Origin: Saprospiraceae bacterium | GTDB lineage: Bacteria; Bacteroidota; Bacteroidia; Chitinophagales; Saprospiraceae | Assembly (NCBI GenBank): GCA_036741235.1 | Contig: DAINSQ010000004.1 | Span: forward strand, 4,200-68,199 | Length of the DNA: 64,000 bases | Reading direction: 5' to 3' | Part shown: in pieces, positions 10,607 to 28,401 of the stretch | Layout of the letters: the number at the start of each line of letters is the position of its first letter | How positions within the stretch are numbered: the first letter of the stretch is position 1 | Made by a program: the position numbers and the translations under genes | The notes under the pieces: generated by a model | The model's input: only the letters and a program-made list of their open reading frames with translations | Told to the model about the DNA's origin: nothing | Database searches by the model: none

Positions 10607-10686
10607 ATATTGTATTTTTCACCAGGCCTTAACCGGTGATTTATTATCATTGTAAATCGCGATGACTGTTATAATAAGAACAAGCC

Positions 10687-11928: not shown

Positions 11929-11929
11929 T

Positions 11930-12556: not shown

Positions 12557-12574
12557 GTGTCTGGCGACTTTATG

Positions 12575-12582
12575 CAAATATA
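12575..12582 (-). promoter_or_regulatory. Bacteroidota-type -7 box (TATATTTG on minus strand)
   Basis: Plus-strand CAAATATA is the reverse complement of TAtaTTTG, 18 nt upstream of the ATG at 12556. Confidence 0.45.
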
Positions 12583-12705
12583 AGGATTTATGAGGGGGAA
12601 TCTCAAGTTGACCGGTATTGAACCGCATAAAGCCGAAATTATTTTTACCTTTACGCGACAATTCTTCAATGCGGTTTTATCAAATCCATCTGATTATTCT
12701 CTTGT

Positions 12706-13650
12706 ATGGCAACTCCAAAATTAGAGGTTAAGCTCTTTTCTGGTATCGCATCGCGTTATCTGGCAGAGGCAATTGCAAAAGACTATGGCCAAAACCTGGG
12801 TGATATCGTTGTAAATCGCTTCAGCGACGGCGAAATGCAACCCGTGATCAATGAATCGGTCAGGGGAGCCTATTTGTTTTTTATTCAATCAACTTTTCCG
12901 CCTACCGACAACCTGATGGAAATGCTACTGATGATTGATGCCGCCAAACGCGCTTCGGCAGGCTATATCACGGCAGTAATCCCCTACTTCGGATATGCCC
13001 GGCAGGATCGCAAAGACAAACCCAGGGTACCCATCTCCGCCAAACTTATCGCCAACCTGCTGCAGGCTGCCGGCGTTAACCGTATTATGACCATGGACCT
13101 GCACGCCGATCAAATCCAGGGCTTTTTCGATATCCCGGTTGACCACCTCAAAAGCGAGGCCATCTATATCCCTTACTTGAAAGAACAGGATCTCTCCAAT
13201 GTTATTTTTGCCTCTCCTGATGTCGGCGGCGTCAAACGCGCGCGTACCTATGCCAAATACTTCGCCAAAGACCTGGTTATCTGTGACAAGTACCGCAAAA
13301 AGGCTAACGAAGTATCCGAAATGACCGTCATAGGCGATGTAAAAGGCGCCGATGTAATCCTTGTTGACGACTTGGTGGATACCGCAGGCACCCTCTGCAG
13401 GGCCGCGCAAATTATTATGGAAAAAGGCGCCAACAGCGTACGCGCCCTATGCACCCACCCCATCCTGTCGGGAAAAGCATATGAGAATATTGATTCTTCC
13501 ATGTTGCATGAACTGATTGTGTGCGATACAATACCGCTGCGCCAACAATCTCCAAAAATTAATGTGCTGTCTACTTCCAAGTTGTTTGCACGCGCCATTC
13601 GAAATATGCACGAACACCGTTCAATTTCTGCACTGTTTGTTGATGGATAA
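12706..13650 (+). CDS. prs: ribose-phosphate pyrophosphokinase
   Basis: 314 aa. Motifs FSDGE, YARQDRK, DLHADQIQGFF and the PRPP-binding loop VDDLVDTAGT. Confidence 0.95.
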   Translation: MATPKLEVKLFSGIASRYLAEAIAKDYGQNLGDIVVNRFSDGEMQPVINESVRGAYLFFIQSTFPPTDNLMEMLLMIDAAKRASAGYITAVIPYFGYARQDRKDKPRVPISAKLIANLLQAAGVNRIMTMDLHADQIQGFFDIPVDHLKSEAIYIPYLKEQDLSNVIFASPDVGGVKRARTYAKYFAKDLVICDKYRKKANEVSEMTVIGDVKGADVILVDDLVDTAGTLCRAAQIIMEKGANSVRALCTHPILSGKAYENIDSSMLHELIVCDTIPLRQQSPKINVLSTSKLFARAIRNMHEHRSISALFVDG

Positions 13651-13662
13651 TCAAAAAAACGC

Positions 13663-13670
13663 TATCTTTG
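13663..13670 (+). promoter_or_regulatory. Bacteroidota-type -7 box (TATCTTTG) upstream of rplY
   Basis: Exact TAnnTTTG match, 37 nt upstream of the ATG at 13707. Confidence 0.4.
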
Positions 13671-13706
13671 CGCGCATTTTTTTAACTAAATAAAATTTCG
13701 CTTACC

Positions 13707-14291
13707 ATGGAAGTAGTTGCAATCAAGGGGCAGGGCCGCGAAGGCCTGGGAAAAAAAGCCGCCAAGGCAGCCCGCAACAATGGCCGTATCCCCTGCGTAA
13801 TGTACGGAGGCGGTGAAGCAGTTCATTTTACGACGTCCCCCACAGAAGTTAAAAACCTGGTATATTCAGGTGATTTCAAGCTTGCGGAAATTGAAGTCGA
13901 CGGTGTATCGCACAAATGTATCCTCAAAGCTATCCAGTTCCACCCGGTTAATGAGGCCATTTTGCACATCGACTTTCTGCGCCTCATCGGTGGCCACCCT
14001 GTAAAAGTTGAGGTGCCCCTCCGCTTTAAAGGTACTGCCTCCGGCGTGAAAGCAGGCGGTAAGCTCCTCCAAACCGTCCGCAAAGTAAAAATCAAAACTA
14101 CTCCGGAACACCTGGTAGACGAATTGTCGGTAGACATCAGCCACCTCGAATTGGGCCAGTCTATCCGTATTCGCGATATCAAGCCCACCGAAGGCGTTGA
14201 GATCATCAACTCCCCGGGTATTCCTATCGCTACTATCGAAATTCCGCGCGCACTGCGTAGCGCAGCTACCACCGCCGAAAAGAAGAAATAA
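13707..14291 (+). CDS. rplY: 50S ribosomal protein L25 / general stress protein Ctc (long form)
   Basis: 194 aa. The N-terminal LGKKAAKAARNNGRIPCVMYGGG... pattern and the C-terminal Ctc extension are typical of L25/Ctc. Confidence 0.9.
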   Translation: MEVVAIKGQGREGLGKKAAKAARNNGRIPCVMYGGGEAVHFTTSPTEVKNLVYSGDFKLAEIEVDGVSHKCILKAIQFHPVNEAILHIDFLRLIGGHPVKVEVPLRFKGTASGVKAGGKLLQTVRKVKIKTTPEHLVDELSVDISHLELGQSIRIRDIKPTEGVEIINSPGIPIATIEIPRALRSAATTAEKKK

Positions 14292-16751: not shown

Positions 16752-18644
16752 TTATTTTTCTACCCTGAACTGGGCGATGGGCTTACCGCTTGCTTTTACT
16801 ATTAGCAAATAGCGGCCCGGCGGCGCTTTTGACAGGTTGATTGACTTGTTGTAAGGGCCCGGAGCCTGCTGCGTATAGCTCAATCTCGCAAGCTCCTTGA
16901 GTTGCGAATTGATGAGCACTACAACTACATCAGCCGCCTTTTCGAGATTATAATTGATCTTTACAGTACCATCTTTGGGGTCGGGGTCCACTTGGGGAAA
17001 TACCGACCAGTCATTGTCGTCTTTGTCTTCAAATTCAACGCGGGGGTCGTAGTATTTTACTTTGCCGTTGCCATACATACTTTTGAGCCGGTAACGTACA
17101 TTTTTCAGTTGCTGGTCGTCGCGAATACCCTTATCTTCAAATGTATAATCATTCTGCGCTTTGCCCTTTCCGGGAATTTTGCCAATCGACTGGTACTGCT
17201 TGCCGCCGTCCATTGAGCGCAGTAATTCGAAATTCATCGGAGTATTTTCGTTGTAAGTGGTCCAGCCCAATTTTATGACATCGCCGGCGCGCTCGGCCTC
17301 GAGGTCAAAAACTTCGGTAGATTCGCGGGCGGCCAGGATCTCCTCGCTGTCTTCCTCGGGCTCCTGCTGGGCCTGCGGCGGCGAAGCCTTGCGGTTTTTT
17401 ATGGTCACTACGTCGCCATTACTCGGATTCCAGATGATCAATCCCAAGGGCGGTTCAAAAATATTTTTGTGGTTGATCTCGCGCACGTTTTCCGCACCAT
17501 CTGTTTTTATCGTGCGTACTTCGATCTTCTGCTGATCTACAAAAACCCAGTTAAATTGGTTGAAACTACCGCTATTGCGGGTCCAGGACTTATTGTCGTC
17601 TGCTTCGCGTAACGGAGCGCCCCAACATCCTTCTCCGGCATATACGGTGCCGTTTTCGTCGTCGCGGATAAACCCCTCTTCACTGCCCGGTTCCCGGGAG
17701 GGACGGATGGGCCAGGTCCACTTGCCCACGTGCGAATCGGATTCAAAGGCAAGTTGAACGCGGTATTTGTAAAAATAGGTAGCCCAGTTGAGCAGCAATT
17801 CGTCGCGCTCGGCTTTTGACTTGGTATGGGGGCGAATAGCGTGGTGATATTGCACCATACGCCAGGCAACGGCAGCGCCGTTGGTTTTGAGGTCGTGCTC
17901 CAGCCATTCGCGCTGCGCGCCGCCTGAAGGAATGAGTGAATTGAGCGTATAAAGCCGCAACAGGTTGCCGCCAAAATTCATCGCATAGTAGATATCGGGA
18001 TTTTTTACGTCGAACATTTCCACAAGCGATTTATTCGAAGACTCGTGATTGCCCCGAGCGACCAACACGGGAAACAAGCGGCCGTCGCTGCCGATAGTAG
18101 CCTGCCAGTCGTCTAGCCAAAAACGCCATTCCGTTGCGGTATCTTCTGCGGTCATGTCGCCGTTGAACAACACAATATGCGGGCGGAGTTTGCTCACCAG
18201 TTTATTGGCATCAAGCCTTGCTTCGCGGTGGTTGCGCGAATCGCCGCCTGCAATAATTGACAAGCGCGCGGTTGGGCTGTCAGGCGCCGTTTGAAATGAC
18301 ATACGGCGGCTTACCCCTTCGCTGTCTTTGATCACAAAGTAGTATACCGTGTTGGGCTGAAGTCCGCTCAAACGAACGTACTGGTTGTTCATACCCTTGG
18401 CAATAAGCGACACGTCGGGTCGCTTGGAATATTTATACGCCGCATATTGTTGGGCGCGATCCGAAACATCGTAGTACAATACCGGGTCGCTGCCCGATAG
18501 CTGGTCCCATCCAATTACCATGGTAGTGGCAGGATCTTCGCGCCAGGTTGCGCGATAACGACCGGTTGCCGCTTTCGCATAGCTTGCGATCAGCAAAATC
18601 CCTCCCAGAAGTAGCAATGTCAGCTTTGTATTTTGCATCTGCAT
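16752..18644 (-). CDS. secreted metallophosphoesterase (purple-acid-phosphatase-like) with C-terminal T9SS-type domain
   Basis: Calcineurin-like motifs GDSRNH, FNGDMT, GNHE, YHHAIRPH. Signal peptide follows the Met at 18644 (MQMQNTKLTLLLLGGILLIASYAKA). C-terminal beta-sandwich tail (...GRYLLIVKASGKPIAQFRVEK). Confidence 0.8.
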   Translation of the reverse strand: MQMQNTKLTLLLLGGILLIASYAKAATGRYRATWREDPATTMVIGWDQLSGSDPVLYYDVSDRAQQYAAYKYSKRPDVSLIAKGMNNQYVRLSGLQPNTVYYFVIKDSEGVSRRMSFQTAPDSPTARLSIIAGGDSRNHREARLDANKLVSKLRPHIVLFNGDMTAEDTATEWRFWLDDWQATIGSDGRLFPVLVARGNHESSNKSLVEMFDVKNPDIYYAMNFGGNLLRLYTLNSLIPSGGAQREWLEHDLKTNGAAVAWRMVQYHHAIRPHTKSKAERDELLLNWATYFYKYRVQLAFESDSHVGKWTWPIRPSREPGSEEGFIRDDENGTVYAGEGCWGAPLREADDNKSWTRNSGSFNQFNWVFVDQQKIEVRTIKTDGAENVREINHKNIFEPPLGLIIWNPSNGDVVTIKNRKASPPQAQQEPEEDSEEILAARESTEVFDLEAERAGDVIKLGWTTYNENTPMNFELLRSMDGGKQYQSIGKIPGKGKAQNDYTFEDKGIRDDQQLKNVRYRLKSMYGNGKVKYYDPRVEFEDKDDNDWSVFPQVDPDPKDGTVKINYNLEKAADVVVVLINSQLKELARLSYTQQAPGPYNKSINLSKAPPGRYLLIVKASGKPIAQFRVEK

Positions 18645-18834
18645 GTGTGGGCTTTTAACTGGAGACCGGGCAGCTTGTGAACCCAATTCCAAAACGATTA
18701 TGAATTGCTGAACATTATGCGTGTAGCCATATTTGGTGTGTTACCACCTTGATGTCGGCTTAAATTAAAGCTTTTTGAACGGGATTTATTGTACCTTTAA
18801 GCCACATTTATTTTTTTAAAACACTAATTCGCCG

Positions 18835-20103
18835 ATGATACAAGATACGCATCTTTTTAACTTGCTTCACCAGGAGTTAGATAGACAACGCAAAGGAATT
18901 GAACTGATTGCCTCCGAGAATTTTACGAGCCAGGCCGTTCTCGATGCCATGGGGTCTTGCCTGACGAATAAATACGCTGAGGGTTATCCCGGTCGCCGGT
19001 ATTACGGCGGCTGCGAGGTTGTGGATACAATCGAACAACTTGCAATCGATCGCCTGAAAGAATTGTTTGGCGCTTCATGGGCCAATGTTCAGCCCCACTC
19101 GGGCGCTCAGGCCAATGCAGCCGTTTTCCTGGCCGTTTTACAACCCGGCGATAGCATCCTGGGGTTCGACCTATCGCACGGCGGCCACCTCTCTCACGGC
19201 TCGCCAGTTAACTTTTCAGGAAAAATATTTAGCGCGCACTTCTACGGCGTAGAACAGGAATCCGGTTTAATAGATATGGATAAAGTTGCCGCCAAAGCCC
19301 GCGAAGTGAAGCCCAAGCTGATTATCTGCGGCGCTTCGGCGTATGCGCGCGATTGGGACTATGCCCGCTTCCGCGCCATTGCCGATGAAGTTGGCGCCTT
19401 GCTGCTGGCCGATATTGCCCACCCCGCCGGCCTCATCGCCGCCAAATTGCTCAACGACCCCATGCCCCACTGCCACATCGTTACTTCTACTACGCATAAA
19501 ACCCTGCGCGGCCCCCGCGGCGGTATTATCATGATGGGAAATAATTTTGACAATCCGTGGGGGCGCACAACCAAAAAAGGGGAACCCATCAAAATGTCGG
19601 CAATACTCGATAGCGGAGTATTCCCCGGCATGCAGGGCGGCCCGCTTGAACACGTCATAGCCGCTAAAGCCGTGGCCTTCTTCGAAGCCTTGCAACCCGA
19701 TTTCAGACAATACGCTCAACAAGTAATCCGCAATGCCCAGGTGATGGCCCAGGCATTTATCGACAAAGGCTACCACGTGATCAGTAATGGTACCGACAAT
19801 CACCTCATGCTCATCGATCTGCGCTCGAAAAATGTAACCGGCAAGCAAGCCGAAAATGCCCTGGTGCGCGCCGATATTACGGTCAACAAAAACATGGTCC
19901 CCTTCGATACACAATCGCCAATGATTACCTCCGGTATCCGCGTGGGCGCCGCCGCCATCACCAGCCGCGGATTTAAGGAAAACGATTGCCTTAAGGTCGT
20001 AGATTGGATGGACGCCATCCTGTCTGATGTAGAAAATGAATCATTGAACAACCGGATTCGACATGAAGTGAACCTGTTTATGCAGCAGTTCCCATTATAC
20101 TAA
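18835..20103 (+). CDS. glyA: serine hydroxymethyltransferase
   Basis: 422 aa. PLP-lysine motif [14 protein letters not shown] and the N-terminal ELIASENF motif. Confidence 0.97.
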
Positions 20104-20124
20104 GGGACGCAATCCGTTTCAGGT

Positions 20125-21186
20125 ATGGGTAAAGTAAAAAAAACACCGCCAGGAGCTCAACGCGCAGGCCGGGAGCAGGCCGAAGAAGAAACTTCCAGTG
20201 AAAATATCGCATTGGAACGGGGCGTTAATTATGTGTTGGCTATTGCCATCGACAAATATGCCGCACCCAACAAACCCCTTTACAATTGCGAACGCGACGC
20301 TGAGGACATTACCCGCATTCTGACTACCAAGTACACGTTTGCTCCCGAAAATGTGAAAAAATTGTATAACGAAAATGCAACCTACGATAATATACTGGTC
20401 GCATTGGATGAGTACTCTCGCCGGCTGGAAGAAAAAGACAGTCTGTTGATCATTTATTCGGGCCACGGCGAAAACCGCAATGGCATAGGCTTTTGGATTC
20501 CCGTAGAAGCTAAAAATTTTACCGATTACCTGCCGCTTAGCCTCATTCGCGATTATCTCGAGCCCGTCAAAGCGAGGCATATTTTTGTGGTATCCGACTC
20601 GTGTTTTGCAGGGCGTTTTTTTATGAGTACTCGCAGCGGCGCCGACTTTACAAAATACACCGAAAAACACCCCTCCCGCTATGCCCTCACTGCCGGCAGA
20701 GATGAACCCGTATTGGACGGAAAACCCGGCCAGAACTCGCCGTTTGCCGATGCTTTTAAATCTGTTTTGAGCAATAATTCCGATCCCATTGGCGCGGTAA
20801 TGCTGAGCGAAAAAGTTTTACTGGACGTTTCCAAAAAAGTCGAAGGCTTTCAAACACCCCGCCACGGCGAACTCAATATCGATGGCAATAAGCACGGACA
20901 GTTTTTCTTCCATCCCAAAAAAGGTATGGGCGCCGAAGAACACCTGGCTACCGCCCAGTTGATTTTACAACTGGCAGACCACGTGTACGACCCTGGCTTG
21001 TACCGTTCGGCAGAAAAGCATATCATTTTTGCTATCGAAAATGCCCGACTGGATAATATCAGTCTACCCGAGGCGCTTTATTGGCAGGCCAAAGCGATGC
21101 AAAGCGCCGGCGATTACGAAGCAGCGATGCAATTATATTCCGAATTTATCGCTCAAAATAAACAGACGCCGAACCCCGCTCCATAG
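20125..21186 (+). CDS. caspase-family (peptidase C14) protein, catalytic dyad intact, C-terminal TPR-like helices
   Basis: His in LLIIYSGHG and Cys in FVVSDSCFAG at the spacing expected for a p20 fold. No signal peptide. Lies 21 nt after glyA. Confidence 0.8.
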   Translation: MGKVKKTPPGAQRAGREQAEEETSSENIALERGVNYVLAIAIDKYAAPNKPLYNCERDAEDITRILTTKYTFAPENVKKLYNENATYDNILVALDEYSRRLEEKDSLLIIYSGHGENRNGIGFWIPVEAKNFTDYLPLSLIRDYLEPVKARHIFVVSDSCFAGRFFMSTRSGADFTKYTEKHPSRYALTAGRDEPVLDGKPGQNSPFADAFKSVLSNNSDPIGAVMLSEKVLLDVSKKVEGFQTPRHGELNIDGNKHGQFFFHPKKGMGAEEHLATAQLILQLADHVYDPGLYRSAEKHIIFAIENARLDNISLPEALYWQAKAMQSAGDYEAAMQLYSEFIAQNKQTPNPAP

Positions 21187-21202
21187 TCCAAAAACTTAGT
21201 TT

Positions 21203-24154
21203 ATGAATAAAGAATTATTGGCAGACGCATATTATCAGTATATCCTTGCAGCTATACAGGCAGGTAAAACTCAGGATGCCGAGGCGAAATACAAGGAAAT
21301 GGGACGTTTTTTTGACGGCCACGCCAAGTTTGCTTCGCTTCATAGTTTAATTGCGCCCGTTCAAATAAATCATGAAAAATCAAAGGTATTTGTGCTTGCA
21401 ATAGGTATTGATCAATACCAAAGTTCAGACTATTCTCCATTGAGAGGTTGCGTTAACGACGCAGGGTTGTTTGTGGAATTAATTAAATCAAAAAGAAAAA
21501 ATGTATATGTCACTTTTATAAAAGATACCGAAGCTACTAAAGCCAATATTATGCTGGCTTTCGAGGAGCTAGACAAAAAGGCCAAACCCGTCGACACCAT
21601 TGCGGTCTATTTTTCCGGCCATGCGCATATTAAAGGATATTGGGATACATATAGCCTGGCTACTTATGATTCAAATATTGTCTCTGAAAAGAATAATCCT
21701 ATTGTAATATACGGAGATGAACTCCACGACGCTATCCAAAAAATTGACGCAATCAATAAATTTTTGATCGTTGATACCCATTCAGATTACGATTTTATGG
21801 CTAAAGCCGTCGAATTGGGAAACTATACGGTATTGTTTGGTTGCGACGACGGAGAAACTGCCCACGAAAGTCAATTTGACGGAAAAACACACGGCGTTTT
21901 TACCTACGCATTTGCAACGGTTATTAAACAATACTCAAGCGAAGTATTGATAACCGGCGATTTACACGAACAAGTGGTAAAATATATCAAGGATAGAAAT
22001 TTCAATCAAACGCCTAAAATGGTTGGCGATATTACGCCGCTGTTTTTTCCGCAAAAAACTATTCAGCCTGCTGAAATTATTAATATCACAAAAAACAACC
22101 ATGCGCCGCTTTCGGAAAGGGATTATTATCGCTTGTCTCAAATAATACAAAAGTCGCCCTTGACTGGTAATTTATTTATTCCCGCTTTAAAAAAAATGGG
22201 ATATCACCTTATCCAAAAAGGAGAACTAGACAAAGGTCTTGACGCTTTTGAATCTTATCAAAAAAACATAGGAATTATCAATGATGAAAATGATGGGCTT
22301 ATACCACTAATCAGAATATGCGACAGACTCGGTCAATACGGCAAAGCGGCAAATTATTTAAAAAGCTGGTTAGAATTTCATCCTGGATTAAATGCCAAAA
22401 ACCCGATTCAGGCTTTGTATGATAAATATTCAACTTATGCCGACGGCGTCCATAAAAAATATGCGCTGGTGGTCGGTATTAATCAATATATAAATTGCCC
22501 TACCCTCCAATCGGCACGTAAAGATGCTGAAAATTGGTATACCTATTTAGTGGAAGATCTTCAAATACCAAAAGAAAATATAACCCTGTTACTGGATAAA
22601 ACAGCTACTCGAAAAACAATATTATCAGAATTTGAAAAATTCGCCGGGCTGGCAAACGAATACCCGGTATTATTCTTCTTTGCGGGGTACGGCTCGGCTT
22701 ATTCCAAAACCTCAGAATCATCTACGAGGGATCTGGGTTGTGACACGCTGAAAGATGATAATAACGCCGCGCCTTTTATCCCAGCCATATTAAGTGTGGA
22801 CGCGCGGCAGGAGGGCGTCCCCGATATCTTGTTTTCAGAACTGTACTCTTTGTCAGCTAATAACAAATCCAGGTTTCTAACCTGTGTGTTAGACATTGGG
22901 TTTGACGAAGTCGCTAACGGCAGGGGTATCAAAGCGGGGGTATTAAATACCAGGGGAATCATATCAGGCGCCTCCGGGCTGAGGACAATAGCCGGGTTTA
23001 TACAGGGAATTGGCAATCTCACCATCCTGCCCGGCACCATCAATTCCGGTAATTTTTCAGAAGCGGCCAGACTATCATGCCAGGAGAATGAACAGGCCGG
23101 GCTTTTTTCTTCAAACCTGTTGGCCGTTCTCAGGGCAAACCCACATGCGATATACCGAATGAGCCAACTGGAAAAGGAGGTGCTGAGAAAAAAAACGCAG
23201 GTGACGGGCCACTATATCCAGACTCCAGTTTTCATCGGCGCCCCGGATTTTGTTGTCTTTGGCTTATACAACCTGGGAGAAGAAGAGATCGCCCAAATAA
23301 AAGACGCGCCTGTTGGCCAACTAAAAACCTTGCTGGAGCAACAAATGGGCGCCAACTGGGGTGAATTCCCTGATAACCCGGTCGTACTGGCAATCGCCGA
23401 AGCGCTGTTGGGCAACATTGAAAAAGCATTGGCCATGCTGAGCGCCGCCGTAGCCGACGAAGTCAGGGAACACCATCGCCATGTTAAAGCCAACTATCAC
23501 CTGGGAAGAATATTGGTTGAAAACAGCAGCGATGACGACAAGGAAAACTGGAGCCAGGCCCTTAATGCAATGCGCGCAGCTACTCAGGCTAACCCCGGTT
23601 TTACTCCGGCGTATTACTACCTGGGAAAAGCTATCCGCCAGGTGAGCATCATTGAGGGTCGCTCGGAGGCGGTCAAAGCTTTTCAAAAATACCAACAAAG
23701 CAACTATATCATCGGCCATCAGGAAGAGGTAGATCAATATCTCGACTCACTCGATGATGAACGCCTTCGCAATCGATATATGAATGAAGGCATCATACAC
23801 CTCGATAAAAATGAATTGACGGAAGCAGAACATTGCTTCCAGGAAGCCCGTCTGCTCGGCGAAAATTCAGCATTTTATTATATGGCGGAAATATATAACA
23901 GGCAGGGCGACTTCCTGCGCGCCCTCAACTCCTATAACCAGGCCCAAATATTAGGAGTAGGAATGGAAGACCTCGCCTTCAAGATGGGCGATATGGTGTG
24001 GAATTTTTTGAAAAATTCCGATGTAATCGCCAACGTACTGGAAGATCTTAAAGCATACAACGAGAATCCAGGTATCCTGAAAAACAGCGGCACCGAATCA
24101 TTACTCGATCATCTGTCGAAAATTCAGGCGCACCTCTCAAAACTCAAACTATAG
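21203..24154 (+). CDS. tandem pseudo-caspase / TPR-like repeat protein
   Basis: Two caspase-like p20 segments. The first (VFVLAIGIDQY..VYFSGHA..FLIVDTHSD) has His present and Cys absent. The second (KYALVVGINQY..FFFAGYGS..CVLDIGFDE) has His replaced by Tyr and Cys absent. Helical TPR-like repeats sit at the N-terminus, between the domains and over the C-terminal ~280 aa. No signal peptide. Confidence 0.7.
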   Translation: MNKELLADAYYQYILAAIQAGKTQDAEAKYKEMGRFFDGHAKFASLHSLIAPVQINHEKSKVFVLAIGIDQYQSSDYSPLRGCVNDAGLFVELIKSKRKNVYVTFIKDTEATKANIMLAFEELDKKAKPVDTIAVYFSGHAHIKGYWDTYSLATYDSNIVSEKNNPIVIYGDELHDAIQKIDAINKFLIVDTHSDYDFMAKAVELGNYTVLFGCDDGETAHESQFDGKTHGVFTYAFATVIKQYSSEVLITGDLHEQVVKYIKDRNFNQTPKMVGDITPLFFPQKTIQPAEIINITKNNHAPLSERDYYRLSQIIQKSPLTGNLFIPALKKMGYHLIQKGELDKGLDAFESYQKNIGIINDENDGLIPLIRICDRLGQYGKAANYLKSWLEFHPGLNAKNPIQALYDKYSTYADGVHKKYALVVGINQYINCPTLQSARKDAENWYTYLVEDLQIPKENITLLLDKTATRKTILSEFEKFAGLANEYPVLFFFAGYGSAYSKTSESSTRDLGCDTLKDDNNAAPFIPAILSVDARQEGVPDILFSELYSLSANNKSRFLTCVLDIGFDEVANGRGIKAGVLNTRGIISGASGLRTIAGFIQGIGNLTILPGTINSGNFSEAARLSCQENEQAGLFSSNLLAVLRANPHAIYRMSQLEKEVLRKKTQVTGHYIQTPVFIGAPDFVVFGLYNLGEEEIAQIKDAPVGQLKTLLEQQMGANWGEFPDNPVVLAIAEALLGNIEKALAMLSAAVADEVREHHRHVKANYHLGRILVENSSDDDKENWSQALNAMRAATQANPGFTPAYYYLGKAIRQVSIIEGRSEAVKAFQKYQQSNYIIGHQEEVDQYLDSLDDERLRNRYMNEGIIHLDKNELTEAEHCFQEARLLGENSAFYYMAEIYNRQGDFLRALNSYNQAQILGVGMEDLAFKMGDMVWNFLKNSDVIANVLEDLKAYNENPGILKNSGTESLLDHLSKIQAHLSKLKL

Positions 24155-26083
24155 CGATACTACTTTTTTAACTGCCTTACCCCTGTTGGTCTCTATCTGA
24201 AGTAGGAATACTCCTTTACCCGGCAAGCGCAACGGATTCACCGGATTGGGGTAGTGGGCCAGCCGGCGGCCATCAATGCTGTAAATGGTGACAGCCCGGA
24301 GCTGAGCGCCCCACACGTCAACGGAGCATATGCCATTGGCGGTTGGGTTGGGCGTGATACGCACCTGAATATTGGCGGCCGGATGCTGCACATTTACCGT
24401 ACCATCTACAAAGTAATCTTCTACCTGGGCGCTGCCCACCATCACCGGCGACTTGTCGGCGCTGTTGAACATACTCCGGAATGTCTCAATTTCAGGTGTG
24501 CTGGCGTCAAACAATTCAGCCATCCAACGGGGAGGTAAAGATTGATAATAGACGGCAGCATATGCCGACAACTTCCCCTGATACCCCTCGATTCCAATTC
24601 GGTAATGCACTACGTCCGAACCGCTGCCTTCAACGCCGTTTTTGCGATTGAAGTCGGGATCATTGGCTGCCTGGCCTTCAATACGAGTAGTATCGTATAC
24701 CGGATGAGATACGCTAAATCCCTCGGGAGGAATGCGATTGTCTTTTAGATTGTTATACGCCCTTTCGAGTATGGAAGTAAACTGCCCATTGACATCTGCA
24801 GGCACGATCTCGTAAATCTGCGCCTGGTCGGGGCGATTGATCAATTGATAGTGAGGCTCAACGCCGCTACCCTGGCCTTCTACTTCAAAGTCGGGACGAA
24901 GGCGGCCCGACTGGAAAACGGTGTCGCCGGCTTCATTCACAACAGTAAACGACACAAAAGCACGTCGACTCGGATAACCCGAGGGGAATTTATGGCCCGC
25001 CTTATTGATAAGCTTGAGCGCAAAAGTTATAGAATCTGCAGTTTCTTCCTCCACTTCCAGGCTCATTTGCAGCGTTTTTTCCTGCAACATAGACAGCGTA
25101 GCGGCAATCGTGGCGTCAAAATGCTCGGCCTCTGCATCGATACCCAAGGTTTGACGGTGTTCCTTCATGAGCTTGAGCATCATGGTATTGGCGCCCGCCA
25201 ATTCATGCAACCCATAGGGCGTACGCGGGTCGAGAAATAGATAATTGGCCGAAATCACCACGGGATCTTCAATGCGAGGCATATGACATCCCTGACAACT
25301 CACCCCTTGCTCTGGATACGAGGAGTTGAGCCATTCGTGATAAGTAGCCTGCTCTACATAAGATGTGCCAAGCGGGTTGCCCTCGTAGTCAAACGGGTGT
25401 GTAACCAGTGTGTGGCAGGGGGCGCAAATACCCGCATCGTTGATATGGTCGCGATAAAGCGGTTTGAAACCTACGAATTCTTCCATAGGCGCGCCGAAGG
25501 GACCAGGATAAGGGCCGAAAATGACGCGCGTTGTGTCAAAATATATCTCTCCGGAGAAAGTAGTTCCCAGATTTTGATCGCTGATTTTATGACAAGTCGA
25601 GCAGGTTACACCGTCGATGCCGATGGAATCCTGCAACATATCGTCAATGAGGTAAGGGCCTTGCCCACGCAAAAAGGCAGTGTAATGCCCATTAGGCGCA
25701 TGGCAGGTCACGCATTTGCTCTGAATGGCTGTACTATGCTGAGGATACAGCAGGATTTCATGACTCACTTTGGCCCTCCAGAAAGGATCTTTGGCGCTAT
25801 TGGCCATCATGGTGGCGCGCCAGTCGTCGTACATATTTACGTCGTTGCCTGCCAAATCAACCATAGCATAACCATTGGGGTCGAGGCCGTGGCAGCCTTT
25901 GCAGGCCGCTGATGTTGGAAAGATAACAGTAGAATCGATGGGCAACAATAAATTGGGCCCCATAGCTTTGAATGCCGCAATTTCTGCTTCGGTATGAAAT
26001 CGCTTGGGCGCCGCATCGGGCAGATTGCCGGCTATGTAGATGGTTCCTAGTATAAGCGCGCCAATAAACAAATGCTTGGACAT
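24149..26083 (-). CDS. secreted pentaheme c-type cytochrome with T9SS C-terminal sorting domain
   Basis: Five CxxCH motifs (CKGCH, CVTCH, CSTCH, CAPCH, CQGCH) in the first ~280 aa. Leader MSKHLFIGALILGTIYIAG from the in-frame ATG at 26083. C-terminal Por tail (ITPNPTANGICSVDVWG...GVFLLQIETNRGKAVKKVVSL). Confidence 0.8.
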   Translation of the reverse strand: MSKHLFIGALILGTIYIAGNLPDAAPKRFHTEAEIAAFKAMGPNLLLPIDSTVIFPTSAACKGCHGLDPNGYAMVDLAGNDVNMYDDWRATMMANSAKDPFWRAKVSHEILLYPQHSTAIQSKCVTCHAPNGHYTAFLRGQGPYLIDDMLQDSIGIDGVTCSTCHKISDQNLGTTFSGEIYFDTTRVIFGPYPGPFGAPMEEFVGFKPLYRDHINDAGICAPCHTLVTHPFDYEGNPLGTSYVEQATYHEWLNSSYPEQGVSCQGCHMPRIEDPVVISANYLFLDPRTPYGLHELAGANTMMLKLMKEHRQTLGIDAEAEHFDATIAATLSMLQEKTLQMSLEVEEETADSITFALKLINKAGHKFPSGYPSRRAFVSFTVVNEAGDTVFQSGRLRPDFEVEGQGSGVEPHYQLINRPDQAQIYEIVPADVNGQFTSILERAYNNLKDNRIPPEGFSVSHPVYDTTRIEGQAANDPDFNRKNGVEGSGSDVVHYRIGIEGYQGKLSAYAAVYYQSLPPRWMAELFDASTPEIETFRSMFNSADKSPVMVGSAQVEDYFVDGTVNVQHPAANIQVRITPNPTANGICSVDVWGAQLRAVTIYSIDGRRLAHYPNPVNPLRLPGKGVFLLQIETNRGKAVKKVVSL

Positions 26084-26265
26084 AGCAGTTTTTTTTGCAT
26101 ACAAGGTGATATAGGGTCAAAAACCACCTGTCGCCTTGTCACGTAAAAATGCAAATTCATTTTCATTGCGGAACAACTTGTCTCTATATTTTTAAGCGTT
26201 CCGTCGTGAAGATTGCGCTGACAGTGCCTGTGCCATATTACCAGATGCCAATTTACATGAACAAT

Positions 26266-26281
26266 ACGAACGAATGTTCGT
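26266..26281. promoter_or_regulatory. inverted repeat ACGAAC-GAAT-GTTCGT, candidate operator upstream of paaA
   Basis: 6-bp arms with a 4-bp spacer, 18 nt upstream of the -7 box. Confidence 0.3.
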
Positions 26282-26298
26282 TTCTTTATAAAAAGAAG

Positions 26299-26306
26299 TA
26301 TATTTG
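26299..26306 (+). promoter_or_regulatory. Bacteroidota-type -7 box (TATATTTG) upstream of paaA
   Basis: Exact TAnnTTTG match, 17 nt upstream of the ATG at 26323. It lies inside the artefactual N-terminal extension of the ORF-track entry. Confidence 0.5.
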
Positions 26307-26322
26307 TATCGCAAAAAAAGCC

Positions 26323-27285
26323 ATGGCAGCTATGAACGAGTTGACCTTAGAGCAGGAATTCCAGGCCAAGATTGATGCTGATATCAAGATCGAGCCTAAA
26401 GACTGGATGCCCGACGCCTATCGCAAAACGCTAATCAGGCAGATCTCCCAGCACGCCCATTCTGAAATCGTCGGTATGTTGCCAGAAGGCAATTGGATAT
26501 CGAGGGCGCCGTCGCTGCGGCGAAAAGTCGCCCTGCTGGCCAAAGTTCAAGATGAAGGCGGCCACGGGCTATACCTCTACAGCGCTACCGAAACGCTGGG
26601 CGTTGACCGCGAGGATCTGATAGACGATCTGCACAGCGGCAAAGCCAAATACAGCAGCATTTTTAACTATCCTTCACTCAATTGGGCCGACATCGGCGCT
26701 ATTGGCTGGCTGGTTGACGGCGCTGCCATCATGAACCAGGTAGCCCTCTGCCGTACTTCCTACGGCCCTTATGCCCGCGCCATGGTGCGCATTTGCAAAG
26801 AGGAAAGTTTTCACCAGCGCCAGGGCTACGAAATATTGCTCACGCTGTGCCGCGGCACGGAAGTGCAAAAACGCATGGCCCAGGATGCCATCAACCGCTG
26901 GTGGTGGCCCTCACTGATGATGTTCGGCCCTCCCGACACCGATTCGCCCAACTCTGAGCAATCTATGAAATGGCGCATCAAACGCCAGTCGAATGATGAA
27001 TTGCGCCAGCGTTTCATTGATATGACGGTGCCACAAGCTGACTTCCTTGGATTGGTACTGCCCGACCCGCTGTTGAAATGGAATGAAGACCGAGGTCACT
27101 ACGACTTTGGCCCCATCAACTGGGAAGAATTTAAAAACGTGCTCAAAGGAAACGGCCAATGTAACCGGCAGCGCATGAAAGATCGCATCAAGGCCCATGA
27201 GGAAGGCGCCTGGGTGCGCGATGCAGCCATGGCTTACGCCGAAAAGCGCCGCCAACGTCAGGAACAAAAGACAAGCGTAGCTTAG
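26323..27285 (+). CDS. paaA: 1,2-phenylacetyl-CoA epoxidase subunit A
   Basis: 320 aa from [13 protein letters not shown]. Di-iron ferritin-like motifs ([16 protein letters not shown]), followed by paaB and paaC. Confidence 0.9.
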
Positions 27286-27305
27286 TTTATCAAACCATCA
27301 GCACC

Positions 27306-27590
27306 ATGAAAAACAACTGGCCACTGTGGGAAATCTTCATCCGCAGCAAAAACGGACTTAACCACAAACACGTTGGTAGCCTGCACGCCTCCGATGCAGC
27401 AATGGCTATCGAAAACGCGCGCGATGTCTATACCCGCCGCAACGAAGGCGTTAGCATTTGGGTCGTAGAATCCAAATATATCACGGCATCAAGCCCTGAA
27501 GACAGCGAGGCGTTCTTCGATCCGGCCAACGACAAAGTATACAGGCATCCCACTTTTTACGATTTGCCCGACGAGGTAAAACACATTTGA
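27306..27590 (+). CDS. paaB: 1,2-phenylacetyl-CoA epoxidase subunit B
   Basis: 94 aa. WPLWEIFIRSKNGLNHKHVGSLHA... is the typical PaaB sequence and size. Confidence 0.9.
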   Translation: MKNNWPLWEIFIRSKNGLNHKHVGSLHASDAAMAIENARDVYTRRNEGVSIWVVESKYITASSPEDSEAFFDPANDKVYRHPTFYDLPDEVKHI

Positions 27591-27633
27591 TCAAACTCAG
27601 CCTTTTAACCAAACCATATAACCAAACAACGCC

Positions 27634-28401
27634 ATGACCACCGCGAATTTGCCACAAGCCCGCTTCAATTATTTATTGCGATTGGGCGATAATGCCTTGA
27701 TATTAGGCCAGCGCTTGTCGGAATGGTGTGGTCATGGCCCGGTGTTGGAGCAAGATATAGCGATTACCAATATTGCGCTCGACCTCATCGGACAGGCCCG
27801 GTCGATCTATGCCTACGCCGCCGAACTCGAAGGCAAAGGCCGCAGCGAAGACGATATCGCTTTCCTGCGCGACGCCTGGGATTTTTACAACGTTCAACTC
27901 GTTGAACAACCCAACGAAGACTGGGCATACGCTATCGTACGCCAGTTTTTATTCGATTCCTGCAATTTTTACCTATACCAATCGCTCACCCACAGCAGCG
28001 ACGAACACATCAGGGCTATCGCTGAAAAATCGCTCAAGGAAATCACTTACCACCTCCGCTATAGCTCGGAGTGGATGATTCGCCTGGGCGACGGCACCGA
28101 GTTGAGCCGCCAGAAAATGCAAACCGCGCTGGACGACCTCTGGATGTACTCGGGTGAAATGATGATGATGGATGAACTCGATATGTTGATGCGCGATCTG
28201 GGCATCGGCGCCGATTTCGATGCCATCAAGCCCCAGGTAGACGCCAAGCGCCGCGAAGTTATCAGCGAAGCAACGCTCCAAATTCCCGGCAACCCGTGGA
28301 TGCAATCAGGCGGAAAACAAGGCCGCCACACCGAATTTCTCGGCCACATACTCGCCGATATGCAGTTTATGCAGCGGGCTTATCCTGGTATGACCTGGTG
28401 A
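27634..28401 (+). CDS. paaC: 1,2-phenylacetyl-CoA epoxidase subunit C
   Basis: 255 aa. YLLRLGDNALILGQRLSEWCGHGPVLEQDIA... is the typical PaaC N-terminus. Confidence 0.88.
   Translation: MTTANLPQARFNYLLRLGDNALILGQRLSEWCGHGPVLEQDIAITNIALDLIGQARSIYAYAAELEGKGRSEDDIAFLRDAWDFYNVQLVEQPNEDWAYAIVRQFLFDSCNFYLYQSLTHSSDEHIRAIAEKSLKEITYHLRYSSEWMIRLGDGTELSRQKMQTALDDLWMYSGEMMMMDELDMLMRDLGIGADFDAIKPQVDAKRREVISEATLQIPGNPWMQSGGKQGRHTEFLGHILADMQFMQRAYPGMTW

What the first reader, a model, noticed from the sequence alone, without database searches (positions are those of the whole stretch)
20125..24154. Active caspase encoded next to a scaffold of two dead caspase folds plus TPR-like repeats: candidate regulated-proteolysis or defence-like module
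Gene A (20125-21186, 353 aa, no signal peptide) keeps the C14 His-Cys dyad (IIYSGHG and VVSDSCFAG). Gene B starts 16 nt downstream (21203-24154, 983 aa, no signal peptide) and contains two more p20-like folds. The nucleophile Cys is missing from both (FLIVDTHSD and CVLDIGFDE), and the His is also lost in the second (FFFAGYGS). Helical TPR-like repeats lie before, between and after these folds. Gene A ends and gene B begins with TPR-like helices, as if a CHAT-like caspase+TPR protein had been split and its protease domain triplicated and then inactivated. A live protease paired with dead paralogues resembles the logic of caspase-8/cFLIP and of sensor/effector pairs in prokaryotic immunity. I am not aware of a characterised bacterial system with this architecture. 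No NTPase, nuclease, TIR or other known defence domain is adjacent. The pair sits only 21 nt after glyA with no visible terminator, so the trigger and physiological role are open.
Basis: partly seen in the sequence, partly recalled or inferred. Interest (0 to 1): 0.75.

Follow-up and report, generated by a model that had tools for sequence, protein, structure and literature searches.

The report
Split live-plus-two-dead caspase protease complex
Two adjacent genes encode one working caspase-like protease and a scaffold with two dead caspase copies; together they are a rare two-piece version of a widespread but unstudied 1,200-residue bacterial protein that probably acts as a tightly regulated protease switch in bacterial conflict or cell-death pathways.

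Summary
Gene A (20125-21186) is a C14 caspase with an intact dyad, His114 and Cys160. Gene B (21203-24154) has two caspase folds without the nucleophile (His193 and Gly566 in its place). The second fold also lacks the His (Tyr496). TPR-like helices lie before, between and after the folds.

The pair is not an isolated oddity. A+B is collinear with a large, uncharacterised family of single-chain proteins of about 1,200 aa. Their order is live caspase, TPR, dead caspase, helices, dead caspase, TPR. At least 303 clusters at 50% identity exist, in Cyanobacteria, Chloroflexota, Actinomycetota, Myxococcota, Proteobacteria and Bacteroidota.

The window holds the rare split form, found here only in Saprospiraceae-like genomes. 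The break maps to about six residues inside the TPR linker of a fused sister protein. A's protease domain belongs to a different caspase clade and was probably swapped in.

The dead domains are under purifying selection (dN/dS about 0.07). They keep the acidic S1-pocket Asp pair. The second carries a conserved, disordered Arg loop where caspases are normally processed.

Relatives sit beside further active caspases fused to effector-like domains, and beside CHAT and CHAT-NACHT proteins.

Best reading: a two-subunit, regulated, Arg/Lys-specific protease, probably part of a conflict or cell-death protease cascade. Its function is untested.

The parts
20125..21186 (+). Gene A: 353-aa cytoplasmic C14 caspase-like protease, the catalytic subunit
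   Evidence: ORF. Pfam Peptidase_C14 at residues 36-240, E 5.5e-14. Orthologues of 50-82% identity always sit directly upstream of a B orthologue. dN/dS 0.07.
20230..20844 (+). A caspase domain (aa 36-240), of the clade found fused to EACC1, WD40 or FGE-sulfatase. It is not the family's own domain 1.
   Evidence: 37% identity (E 4e-38) to the C14+PF19964 protein P0053. 64% identity to the caspase domain of a caspase-WD40 protein. 35-39% identity to caspase-FGE-sulfatase paralogues in L011. Only 26% identity (E 1e-7) to domain 1 of the fused relative P0008. The domain-1 HMM scores 278-478 bits on fused members but only about 40 bits on A.
20464..20466 (+). Catalytic His114 of A (IIYSGHG)
   Evidence: Aligned to the catalytic His of Yca1, metacaspase-4 and GSU0716. 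Position.
20602..20604 (+). Catalytic Cys160 of A (SDSCFAG). Asp158 occupies the S1-pocket Asp position.
   Evidence: The role of this Asp in the S1 pocket comes from TbMCA2 Asp211 (PMC4357240, PMC6426788).
20923..21168 (+). A tail (aa 267-348): first half of the split TPR-like linker
   Evidence: Matches the HMM of the family's domain 1-domain 2 linker, E 1e-13. Aligns to residues 277-353 of the fused sister protein P0183. Weak Pfam TPR matches at 315-349.
21203..24154 (+). Gene B: 983-aa scaffold with two pseudo-caspase domains and helical repeats
   Evidence: ORF. Pfam C14 twice plus TPRs. Orthologues of 36-64% identity. AF2 model with pLDDT 83.9 and pTM 0.69. dN/dS 0.095.
21203..21367 (+). 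B head (aa 1-55): second half of the split TPR-like linker
   Evidence: A tail joined to B head matches linker HMM positions 6-134 without a break, E 1.8e-17. B residue 1 aligns to P0183 residue 360. Helices 3-19, 23-37 and 41-50 in the model.
21377..22057 (+). Pseudo-caspase 1 (aa 59-285). His140 is kept and the nucleophile position holds His193. The S1-type Asp86 and Asp191 are kept.
   Evidence: Family domain-2 HMM, E 4e-55. Alignment to Yca1. Column counts at the Cys position: His 54, Val 10, Cys 9 of 115. dN/dS 0.069.
22058..22447 (+). Middle helical (TPR-like) region (aa 286-415)
   Evidence: Helices in the AF2 model. Pfam TPR_14 at 369-395. Least constrained part, dN/dS 0.21.
22448..23272 (+). 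Pseudo-caspase 2 (aa 416-690). Tyr496 is at the His position and Gly566 at the Cys position. Asp441 and Asp564 are kept.
   Evidence: Family domain-3 HMM, E 2.3e-37. hhalign of domain 1 against domain 3 gives 99.4%. Column counts: His position Asn 46, Tyr 19; Cys position Gly 62, Ser 24. dN/dS 0.066.
22910..23002 (+). Conserved, predicted-disordered Arg loop of pseudo-caspase 2 (aa 570-600; Arg574, Arg584, Arg594). It lies at the canonical p20/p10 inter-subunit linker position and is a candidate cleavage or pseudosubstrate loop.
   Evidence: The column of Arg574 is Arg in 102 of 115 fused relatives, and a second Arg column in 99 of 115. pLDDT is below 50 at 583-598 in B and 919-928 in P0070. 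Its role is inferred.
23288..23752 (+). Conserved C-terminal helical module (aa 696-850), with ANYHLGRILVE and YYYLGKAIRQ motifs
   Evidence: Family C-terminal HMM, E 4.4e-28. Motifs conserved across phyla. dN/dS 0.058 for aa 691-983.
23753..24151 (+). Extra C-terminal TPR extension (aa 851-983), specific to the Saprospiraceae clade
   Evidence: Pfam TPR_16 and TPR_2 at 859-914. Present in the split forms, P0008, P0183 and L012, and absent from most fused members.

Best explanation
A and B are the two subunits of a split member of an old, widespread, uncharacterised family. Family members are usually one cytoplasmic chain of about 1,200 aa. The order is active metacaspase-like caspase, TPR linker, pseudo-caspase 1, helical region, pseudo-caspase 2, conserved C-terminal TPR-like module.

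Shown here:
- A+B is collinear with the single-chain proteins.
- The break maps to about six residues inside the TPR linker.
- The dyad is intact in A and lost in both folds of B.
- The dead domains are under strong purifying selection and keep the two S1-pocket Asp residues.
- A conserved, disordered Arg loop lies at the inter-subunit-linker position of pseudo-caspase 2.
- The A-B adjacency is conserved in four genomic contexts.

Inferred:
1. A's helical tail stacks on B's helical head and rebuilds the linker, so A is held non-covalently on B.
2. A cleaves after Arg or Lys, like metacaspases and orthocaspases.
3. The two dead folds act as partner and peptide-binding domains that control A. 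They may supply the dimer-like partner surface that caspase folds need. They may also hold Arg-containing segments, including the Arg574 loop, as pseudosubstrate or licensing cleavage site.
4. The conserved C-terminal helical module binds the trigger or a partner protein.
5. The output is proteolysis of other proteins in a conflict or programmed-death type cascade. In most relatives the gene lies beside one or more further active caspases fused to effector-like domains, or beside CHAT or CHAT-NACHT proteins.

In this window no such partner is adjacent. The pair is probably co-transcribed with glyA.
For: - Collinearity with fused proteins P0007, P0008 and P0009 and with fused genes from Chloroflexota, Gammaproteobacteria, Actinomycetota, Myxococcota and Cyanobacteria.
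- Family size: 589 proteins at E<=1e-20, the best 120 nearly all about 1,000-1,350 aa. 303 representatives at E<=1e-30, nearly all with the B profile starting at residue about 360-400.
- Fission point: the linker HMM matches A tail plus B head without a break. In the fused sister P0183, A 267-343 aligns to 277-353 and B 1 aligns to 360.
- Catalytic columns: domain 1 His 115/115 and Cys 115/115. Domains 2 and 3 are degenerate. hhalign confirms the equivalences.
- Fold: AF2 models with pLDDT 86.3 and pTM 0.74 (fused P0070) and pLDDT 83.9 (B). Foldseek finds MALT1 and metacaspases.
- Selection: dN/dS 0.066-0.069 for the dead domains against 0.071 for A.
- S1 Asp pair kept. Published precedent: pseudo-orthocaspases keep these Asp residues and could still bind basic peptides (PMC6426788).
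- Arg loop conserved and disordered.
- Adjacency kept with 11-16 nt spacers beside glyA, in a caspase island, upstream of a CHAT-NACHT gene, and in L023 with a wider 189-nt spacer.
- Companion active 'DCCHS' caspases lie next to fused members in nine loci. One is covered end to end by PADLOC's 'caspase' model.
- Precedent for caspase-activated death effectors: PMC12642450. Precedent for inactive caspase domains as regulators in conflict systems of multicellular bacteria: PMC7159879.
Against: - There is no biochemical or genetic data for any member.
- The A:B contact is inferred from the fused homologues only. No complex model could be run, and the coordinates of the fused model were not available, so domain packing was not inspected.
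- A's protease domain is of a different clade from the family's domain 1. It may therefore not use the same interface with the dead domains.
- The window shows no companion caspase, effector, NTPase or mobile-element gene. Its neighbours are metabolic genes: glyA, a purple-acid-phosphatase-like gene, a multihaem cytochrome and the paa genes.
- PADLOC gives only a generic caspase match, with no system assignment.
- The defence or cell-death role rests on gene neighbourhoods in about a dozen loci, not on a statistical survey.
Confidence: 0.6

Rival explanations
1. B is mainly an inhibitor of A, in a cFLIP-like or antitoxin-like arrangement. A is a potentially toxic protease. B's dead folds bind it, or offer an uncleavable or slowly cleaved Arg loop as pseudosubstrate, and keep it silent until B is removed or remodelled. 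There is no sensing by B beyond that and no downstream cascade.
For: - Dead paralogue next to live protease, tight operon, both under purifying selection.
- S1 Asp residues kept in the dead folds, and a conserved Arg loop.
- Published ideas that inactive caspase domains act as dominant-negative regulators (PMC7159879).
- No other partner gene in this window.
Against: - In most of the family the live and dead folds are one chain, so a simple two-gene toxin/antidote logic cannot be the ancestral state.
- The large, highly conserved C-terminal helical module would have no role.
- Fused members almost always have a further active caspase next door.
Confidence: 0.2
2. The pair is a housekeeping or developmental protease. 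It would do regulated protein processing linked to filamentous growth or metabolism, expressed with glyA, with no role in conflict or cell death.
For: - 21-nt spacing after glyA with no terminator-like site, kept in L001, L005, L008 and L009.
- Metabolic neighbours.
- Named sources include filamentous or developmentally complex bacteria such as Kouleothrix, Haliscomenobacter and filamentous cyanobacteria (their growth habit is from general knowledge). Caspase homologues there have been linked to functions other than death (PMC3501461).
Against: - The glyA linkage is limited to one narrow clade. More distant split pairs (36-39% identity) lie in a caspase island or upstream of CHAT-NACHT.
- GC3 of A (0.51) and B (0.44) is well below that of the neighbours (0.55-0.66), which suggests a foreign or differently evolving insert.
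- Fused members lie near transposase, T4SS coupling protein, PIN and SIR2 genes.
Confidence: 0.15
3. A and B are functionally unrelated neighbours, and B is a decaying relic of a caspase gene.
For: B has lost all catalytic residues. One orthologue (L009) is broken into two ORFs.
Against: - B is an intact 983-codon ORF with dN/dS about 0.1.
- Its adjacency to A is conserved down to 36% identity.
- A's tail and B's head are two halves of one module.
- The broken L009 copy comes from a contig labelled 'tig', which may be a long-read assembly with indel errors.
Confidence: 0.03

Closest known systems
Separase and the CRISPR-associated TPR-CHAT protease Csx29 (Craspase)
   Same: One polypeptide combines TPR-like helical repeats, a catalytically dead caspase fold and a live caspase fold. 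The protease is silent until a partner or trigger remodels it (PMC10028731; PMC4626109).
   Different: - Those enzymes are CHAT or C50 clan-CD proteases. Here all three folds are C14 (metacaspase-like). Pfam CHAT does not match A or B, and Foldseek's best matches are MALT1 and metacaspases.
- The order is live first, then two dead folds, with helical regions between them.
- There is no CRISPR or securin-like context.
- Whether the dead and live folds pack as in separase could not be checked.
Bacterial pseudo-orthocaspases (Klemencic et al. 2019)
   Same: p20-like folds with a substituted His-Cys dyad. They keep the two acidic S1-pocket Asp residues and are thought to bind basic peptides without cleaving them (PMC6426788).
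   Different: - Those described are single-domain proteins, commonly with a Tyr-Ser pair, and are discussed in relation to photosynthesis.
- Here two dead folds sit in tandem in one protein that is fused, or encoded next, to a live caspase.
[quoted passage not shown]
Caspase-8 / cFLIP(L) heterodimer
   Same: A live caspase paired with a dead paralogue that can activate or restrain it.
   Different: An animal system with separate genes, death-effector domains and Asp specificity. It is an analogy of logic only. No homology beyond the shared fold was tested.
Protease-effector modules and protease cascades of prokaryotic immunity (caspase plus alpha/beta-hydrolase, EACC1 and related modules)
   Same: - Relatives of the pair lie beside caspase plus DUF7379 alpha/beta-hydrolase, caspase plus subtilase, TPR-CHAT and CHAT-NACHT genes.
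- A's protease domain is closest to the EACC1-associated caspase type.
- Such modules are latent death effectors released by cleavage after Arg (PMC12642450; PMC7159879).
   Different: - A scores 56.6 bits against a cut-off of 140 for NCBIfam caspase_w_EACC1, and it has no EACC1 domain.
- No effector gene is adjacent in this window.
- The triple-fold protein is not described in those papers.

Membership tests
Peptidase C14 (caspase / metacaspase / orthocaspase fold, clan CD) | Caspase-hemoglobinase alpha/beta fold recognised by sequence profile and by structure | tested here: met
   Pfam PF00656 in A (5.5e-14) and twice in B (4.3e-22). The AF2 model of B matches MALT1, metacaspase 9 and 4, Yca1 and GSU0716 with probability 1.0. 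hhalign between the three domain types gives 99.4-99.9%. A was not modelled itself.
Peptidase C14 (active enzyme) | His-Cys catalytic dyad at the conserved positions | tested here: met
   Met for A only: His114 and Cys160. Not met for either fold of B: His140/His193 and Tyr496/Gly566.
Unnamed family of single-chain triple-caspase-fold TPR proteins (about 1,200 aa) | Collinear order: domain 1, TPR linker, domain 2, helices, domain 3, conserved C-terminal module | tested here: met
   A+B aligns end to end with fused members. B matches the domain-2, domain-3 and C-terminal HMMs (4e-55, 2e-37, 4e-28). A tail plus B head matches the linker HMM.
Unnamed family of single-chain triple-caspase-fold TPR proteins (about 1,200 aa) | Family-type first domain (motifs YFACHG..ADTCHS..WGGGHGVFT) | tested here: not met
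   The domain-1 HMM gives 278-478 bits on fused members but about 40 bits on A. A is closer to caspases of other architectures. The protease module of the split lineage is therefore probably a replacement.
CHAT domain proteases (PF12770; HetF, Csx29, SAVED-CHAT) | Match to the CHAT profile | tested here: not met
   No CHAT match for A or B at E<=1. Only 'faint' precomputed hits in fused relatives. True CHAT proteins in neighbouring genes score 174-178 bits.
Separase/Csx29-type pseudo-caspase plus active-caspase unit | Dead and live caspase folds packed against each other as a pseudo-dimer | not testable with these tools
   The fused-homologue model has pTM 0.74, but no coordinates or contact maps were returned. 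No multimer prediction was available.
Pseudo-orthocaspases | p20-like fold with substituted dyad but conserved acidic S1-pocket residues (equivalents of TbMCA2 Asp95 and Asp211) | tested here: met
   Both folds of B have a substituted dyad and keep Asp86/Asp191 and Asp441/Asp564. These columns are invariant or nearly invariant in the family. The definition is from PMC6426788. They differ in being tandem domains of a larger protein.
NCBIfam NF047832 caspase, EACC1-associated type | Score above the curated cut-off (140 bits) and association with an EACC1 domain | tested here: not met
   A scores 56.6 bits and B 45.7 bits. There is no EACC1 domain in A or B. A is only a relative of that clade.
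Known anti-phage defence systems (PADLOC-DB v2) | Match to system-specific component models and presence of the system's other genes | tested here: inconclusive
   Only the generic model 'caspase' PDLC02987 matches, and only over part of the profile: A 2.2e-11, B 4.4e-28. The same model covers a companion caspase of a fused relative end to end, 1.4e-66. No other defence gene lies next to the pair in the window.

The most novel reading that the evidence does not exclude
The triple-fold family, fused or split, is a previously unrecognised bacterial caspase-activation platform. The two dead caspase folds would work as Arg-peptide receptors. They would read a proteolytic or invader-derived signal, or hold a bait loop. 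They would then license the single live caspase to start a caspase-to-caspase cascade through the neighbouring 'DCCHS' caspase-effector proteins. That would be a one- or two-chain counterpart of the initiator caspase/cFLIP platforms of animals, present mainly in filamentous and developmentally complex bacteria.
Probability: 0.2. Interest if true: 0.8.

Novelty: new variant of a known kind. Interest (0 to 1): 0.6.

Why it matters
Bacterial caspase-like proteases are emerging as switches of immunity and cell death. Examples are Craspase, protease-activated effector modules and gasdermin activation. How stand-alone C14 caspases are kept silent and then triggered is largely unknown.

This work shows that a large, cross-phylum family couples one live caspase to two conserved dead copies and a conserved helical module. 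It is currently annotated only as 'caspase family protein'.

The window holds a natural split version. The catalytic subunit and the regulatory scaffold can therefore be expressed, mutated and mixed separately. That is a ready-made experimental handle on what pseudo-caspase domains do. It also documents a gene fission combined with replacement of the protease module.

Tried and rejected
- Promoter and terminator scans of 18500-24600 gave counts no higher than shuffles: 13 against 10.2 and 11 against 8.4. They say nothing either way, and Bacteroidota promoters are not covered.
- Single-sequence phmmer against the PDB gave only marginal matches (E 0.005-0.8). They were useful only for the His alignment.
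- NCBIfam has no family-level model for either protein.
It was repeated with 60 sequences.
I used a natural fusion (P0070) as a proxy, but no coordinates were returned. The question of whether A docks on a dead domain through the caspase dimer interface therefore stays open.
- Foldseek on whole multidomain models does not report which domain matched, and separase and Csx29 were not among the top 50.
- I considered a sequencing artefact or a recoded stop between A and B. I rejected it because the frames differ, a stop sits just before B's ATG, and the split is conserved in orthologues of 36-64% identity.
- I considered that A is simply the family's domain 1 after divergence. I rejected it in favour of module replacement, because A is 35-64% identical to caspases of other architectures but only about 25% identical to domain 1 of its closest fused relatives. 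Its tail, in contrast, is clearly orthologous to the family linker.
- Literature searches for a described triple- or tandem-caspase bacterial protein found none. The library lacks most subscription journals, so this is not proof of absence.

Full report
**1. The observation**

The two ORFs are exactly as described.
- A spans 20125-21186 (353 aa) and B spans 21203-24154 (983 aa), both on the + strand.
- A starts 21 nt after glyA (18835-20103), and B starts 16 nt after A.
- A and B are in different frames, and a stop codon lies immediately before B's ATG. The two-gene state is real.

- Pfam finds one Peptidase_C14 domain in A (residues 36-240, E 5.5e-14) and two stretches in B (E 4.3e-22).
- It also finds TPR matches in A's tail and at three places in B.

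The quoted motifs are present.
- A has His114 and Cys160.
- B's first fold keeps His140 but has His193 where the Cys should be.
- B's second fold has Tyr496 at the His position and Gly566 at the Cys position.

Three independent results support these equivalences.
- A phmmer alignment places B's SGHA on the catalytic SGHG of yeast Yca1.
- Profile-profile alignments between the three domain types give 99.4-99.9% probability. They place the catalytic Cys column of domain 1 on a non-conserved column in domain 2 and on Gly in domain 3.
- Column counts in 115 relatives agree.

An AlphaFold2 model of B (pLDDT 83.9, pTM 0.69) contains two alpha/beta domains separated by helices. Its best PDB matches are MALT1 paracaspase, plant and yeast metacaspases and GSU0716. 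The remaining matches are TPR proteins.

**2. What the pair really is**

Homology searches changed the picture.

B has full-length orthologues of 36-64% identity in Saprospiraceae-like genomes. It also has longer relatives, P0007 (1,229 aa), P0008 (1,317 aa, Haliscomenobacter) and P0009.
- Joining A and B in silico gives a sequence collinear with these single-chain proteins. The A|B junction falls in a helical linker.
- A scan of species-representative genomes found the same single-chain gene in six further groups:
  - Roseiflexaceae (Chloroflexota)
  - Granulosicoccus (Gammaproteobacteria)
  - Agromyces (Actinomycetota)
  - Kofleriaceae (Myxococcota)
  - a cyanobacterium
  - Haliscomenobacter

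The family is large.
- A profile search returned 589 proteins at E<=1e-20. The best 120 are nearly all about 1,000-1,350 aa and score 866-1,494 bits.
- Their sources call them only 'caspase family protein' or 'TPR repeat protein'. Named sources include Microcoleus, Nostoc, Leptolyngbya, Laspinema, Kalymmatonema, Kouleothrix, Ornithinimicrobium and Burkholderiaceae.
- An exhaustive search of 1.84 billion cluster representatives with a B profile gave 303 hits at E<=1e-30.
- In nearly all of the best 150, the B profile starts at residue about 360-400 of a protein of about 1,200 aa, which means a fused protein.
- Only the Saprospiraceae-type proteins P0001, P0005 and P0006 clearly start at residue 1. 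Three others may be fragments.

The live-dead-dead architecture is therefore ancient and usually a single chain. The window carries a rare split form.

**3. The fission point and a swapped protease module**

The fission point is well defined.
- An HMM of the family's domain 1-domain 2 linker matches A residues 267-348 (E 1e-13).
- It matches A's tail joined to B's head without a break over HMM positions 6-134 (E 1.8e-17).
- The closest fused relative, P0183 (1,363 aa), aligns with B over its full length at 36% identity, starting at P0183 residue 360.
- P0183 also aligns with A's tail, residues 267-343 onto 277-353.
- The break therefore maps to about six residues between two TPR-like hairpins.

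A's protease domain is not the family's domain 1.
- The domain-1 HMM scores 278-478 bits on every fused member but about 40 bits on A.
- A is only 26% identical (E 1e-7) to domain 1 of P0008.
- A is 37% identical (E 4e-38) to a caspase fused to PF19964.
- A is 64% identical to the caspase domain of a caspase-WD40 protein.
- A is 35-39% identical to four tandem caspase-FGE-sulfatase genes that lie next to P0008.

The simplest history is that the split lineage replaced the original first domain with a caspase of this promiscuous clade. It kept the linker, and the gene was cut inside the linker. This history is inferred.

**4. Are the dead domains functional?**

Several results say they are.
- Between two orthologous loci with unsaturated dS (L001 and L005), dN/dS is 0.071 for A, 0.069 for pseudo-caspase 1, 0.066 for pseudo-caspase 2 and 0.058 for the C-terminal region. 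The middle helical region is the least constrained, at 0.21.
- In 115 fused members, domain 1 has His and Cys in 115 of 115.
- Domain 2 keeps His in 83. At the Cys position it has His in 54, Val in 10 and Cys in only 9.
- Domain 3 has Asn, Tyr or others at the His position, and Gly in 62 or Ser in 24 at the Cys position.
- Both dead domains keep the two Asp residues that correspond to TbMCA2 Asp95 and Asp211. In B these are Asp86/Asp191 and Asp441/Asp564.
- Those Asp residues form the acidic S1 pocket for Arg or Lys. [quoted passage not shown]
- Domains 2 and 3 are closer to each other (E 3.6e-36) than either is to domain 1. They probably arose by an internal duplication.

Another conserved feature lies right after the lost Cys of domain 3, where caspases carry the p20/p10 inter-subunit linker.
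- One Arg column is Arg in 102 of 115 members and a second in 99 of 115. Conserved Asp, Arg and Pro lie between them.
- This segment has pLDDT below 50 in both models.
- In B it is the stretch NGR(574)GIKAGVLNTR(584)GIISGASGLR(594).
- A conserved but disordered basic loop at that position is what one would expect of a cleavage site or pseudosubstrate for an Arg-specific caspase. This reading is inferred.

**5. Context**

In the window the neighbours are metabolic or unrelated genes.
- Upstream lie a purple-acid-phosphatase-like gene and glyA.
- Downstream lies a convergent multihaem-cytochrome-like gene whose end overlaps B's stop by 6 nt, followed by paaA, paaB and paaC.
- No other ORF in the 64 kb matches any of the caspase-domain HMMs.
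- GC3 is 0.51 for A and 0.44 for B, against 0.55-0.66 for the neighbours. This fits an insert of foreign or differently evolving DNA. There is no room for flanking repeats.

The A-B adjacency is conserved in four settings.
- glyA-A-B in L001, L005, L008 and L009, with B 60-64% identical.
- L004, with B 36% identical. The gene order, flanked by LytTR two-component genes, is:
  - caspase plus DUF7379/PGAP1 alpha/beta-hydrolase (1,114 aa)
  - TPR-CHAT (800 aa)
  - A
  - B
  - caspase plus subtilase (890 aa)
- L021 and L022, with A 54% and B 39% identical. The pair is followed on the same strand by a 1,455-aa CHAT-NACHT protein.
- L023, where A is followed by a partial B-like gene.

Fused members almost always have a further active caspase next door.
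- These companions are 665-1,114 aa and share a 'DCCHS' motif.
- Their C-terminal regions fall into several unrelated groups, including DUF7379 hydrolase.
- PADLOC's model named 'caspase' covers one such companion end to end, E 1.4e-66.
- Nearby genes include SIR2, a transposase, PIN and a T4SS coupling protein.

Published work gives this context meaning.
- Caspase plus alpha/beta-hydrolase modules are latent death effectors released by cleavage after Arg (PMC12642450).
- Inactive caspase domains in conflict systems of multicellular bacteria have been proposed to act as dominant-negative or peptide-binding units (PMC7159879).

**6. Mechanism proposed**

What is shown: a split, conserved, selected pair with one live and two dead C14 folds, helical modules and an Arg loop.

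What is inferred:
- A's tail and B's head rebuild the TPR linker and tether A to B.
- A cuts after Arg or Lys.
- The dead folds provide the partner surface and the Arg-peptide binding that gate A. The Arg574 loop would serve as licensing site or pseudosubstrate.
- The conserved C-terminal module binds the trigger or a partner.
- The output is proteolysis within a conflict or cell-death cascade.

I put about 0.9 on the split-family identification. I put about 0.5 on the gating mechanism. I put less on the defence role for this particular window, where no partner gene is adjacent.

**7. Comparison with known systems**

- The closest known design is TPR plus pseudo-caspase plus active caspase, as in separase and Csx29 (PMC10028731). 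Those are CHAT or C50 proteins. CHAT does not match A or B, the number and order of folds differ, and the best structural matches are C14 enzymes.
- The dead folds meet the published description of pseudo-orthocaspases. However, they are tandem domains of a larger protein. The survey that defined pseudo-orthocaspases set aside the 'few proteins' with multiple p20 domains.
- Catalogues of prokaryotic caspase homologues list caspase-TPR architectures without noticing the extra dead folds.
- I found no paper describing this family.
- I therefore rate it a new variant of a known kind. It is a widespread, unnamed family, and the window holds an unusual split, module-swapped member.

**8. Verdict**

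- The split-protein idea is right.
- The CHAT label and the order of events are wrong.
- The pair is not unique, but it represents a large uncharacterised family.
- Interest is moderate to high (0.6). The natural split offers a direct way to test what pseudo-caspase domains do. Against that, no function has been shown, and the general theme of a dead caspase regulating a live one is already known.

Noticed in passing
window 20125-24154 compared with 16752-20103 and 24149-28401: A and B have clearly lower GC3 (0.51 and 0.44) than all neighbouring genes (0.55-0.66). This suggests a horizontally acquired or differently evolving insert downstream of glyA. The intergenic gaps are too short to hold flanking repeats.
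   Followed up: partly
window 24149-26104 (- strand): A 651-aa protein with several CxxCH motifs and weak cytochrome c7 and MtrC-like matches converges on B. Its 3' end overlaps B's stop codon by 6 nt.
   Followed up: partly
window 26149-28401 (+ strand): Phenylacetate-CoA oxygenase genes, with strong Pfam PaaA_PaaC matches for paaA and paaC. The listed paaA ORF has an N-terminal extension of about 80 residues before the Pfam domain, so the true start is probably further downstream.
   Followed up: no
L009 10001-12954: The B orthologue of this Saprospiraceae MAG is broken into a 592-aa ORF plus a second ORF carrying the C-terminal module. It is either a pseudogene or an indel error; the contig is labelled 'tig', so it may come from a long-read assembly.
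   Followed up: no
Alignment A3 (115 fused family members), columns of P0070 residues 547 and 902: A minority of fused members have Cys at the nucleophile position of domain 2 (9 of 115) or domain 3 (7 of 115). Some members may therefore have more than one live protease domain, or may record intermediate stages of inactivation.
   Followed up: no
L011 1320-9864 (- strand), next to the fused gene at 9959-13912: Four tandem caspase paralogues of 606-682 aa lie beside the Haliscomenobacter triple-fold gene. The two that were scanned are caspase-FGE-sulfatase fusions. All four are the closest non-orthologous relatives of window protein A among the loci (35-39% identity).
   Followed up: partly
L021 8071-12438 and L022 6991-11358: A 1,455-aa protein with an N-terminal CHAT domain and a NACHT (STAND) NTPase lies directly downstream of a divergent A-B pair on the same strand. 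This links the pair to NLR-like machinery in that genome.
   Followed up: partly
L017 4646-6826; similar genes in L018, L019, L014, L016, L011, L012: A companion active caspase with a 'DCCHS' motif and a variable C-terminal half sits next to almost every fused family member. PADLOC's model 'caspase' (PDLC02987) covers the L017 protein end to end. I could not determine which defence system or candidate system that model belongs to.
   Followed up: partly
P0070 residues 169-180 (fused model); A residues 164-172: The live domain also has a disordered loop with a nearly invariant Arg (GRR) just after its catalytic Cys. A has TRSG at the matching place. These are candidate autoprocessing sites of the active protease.
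   Followed up: no
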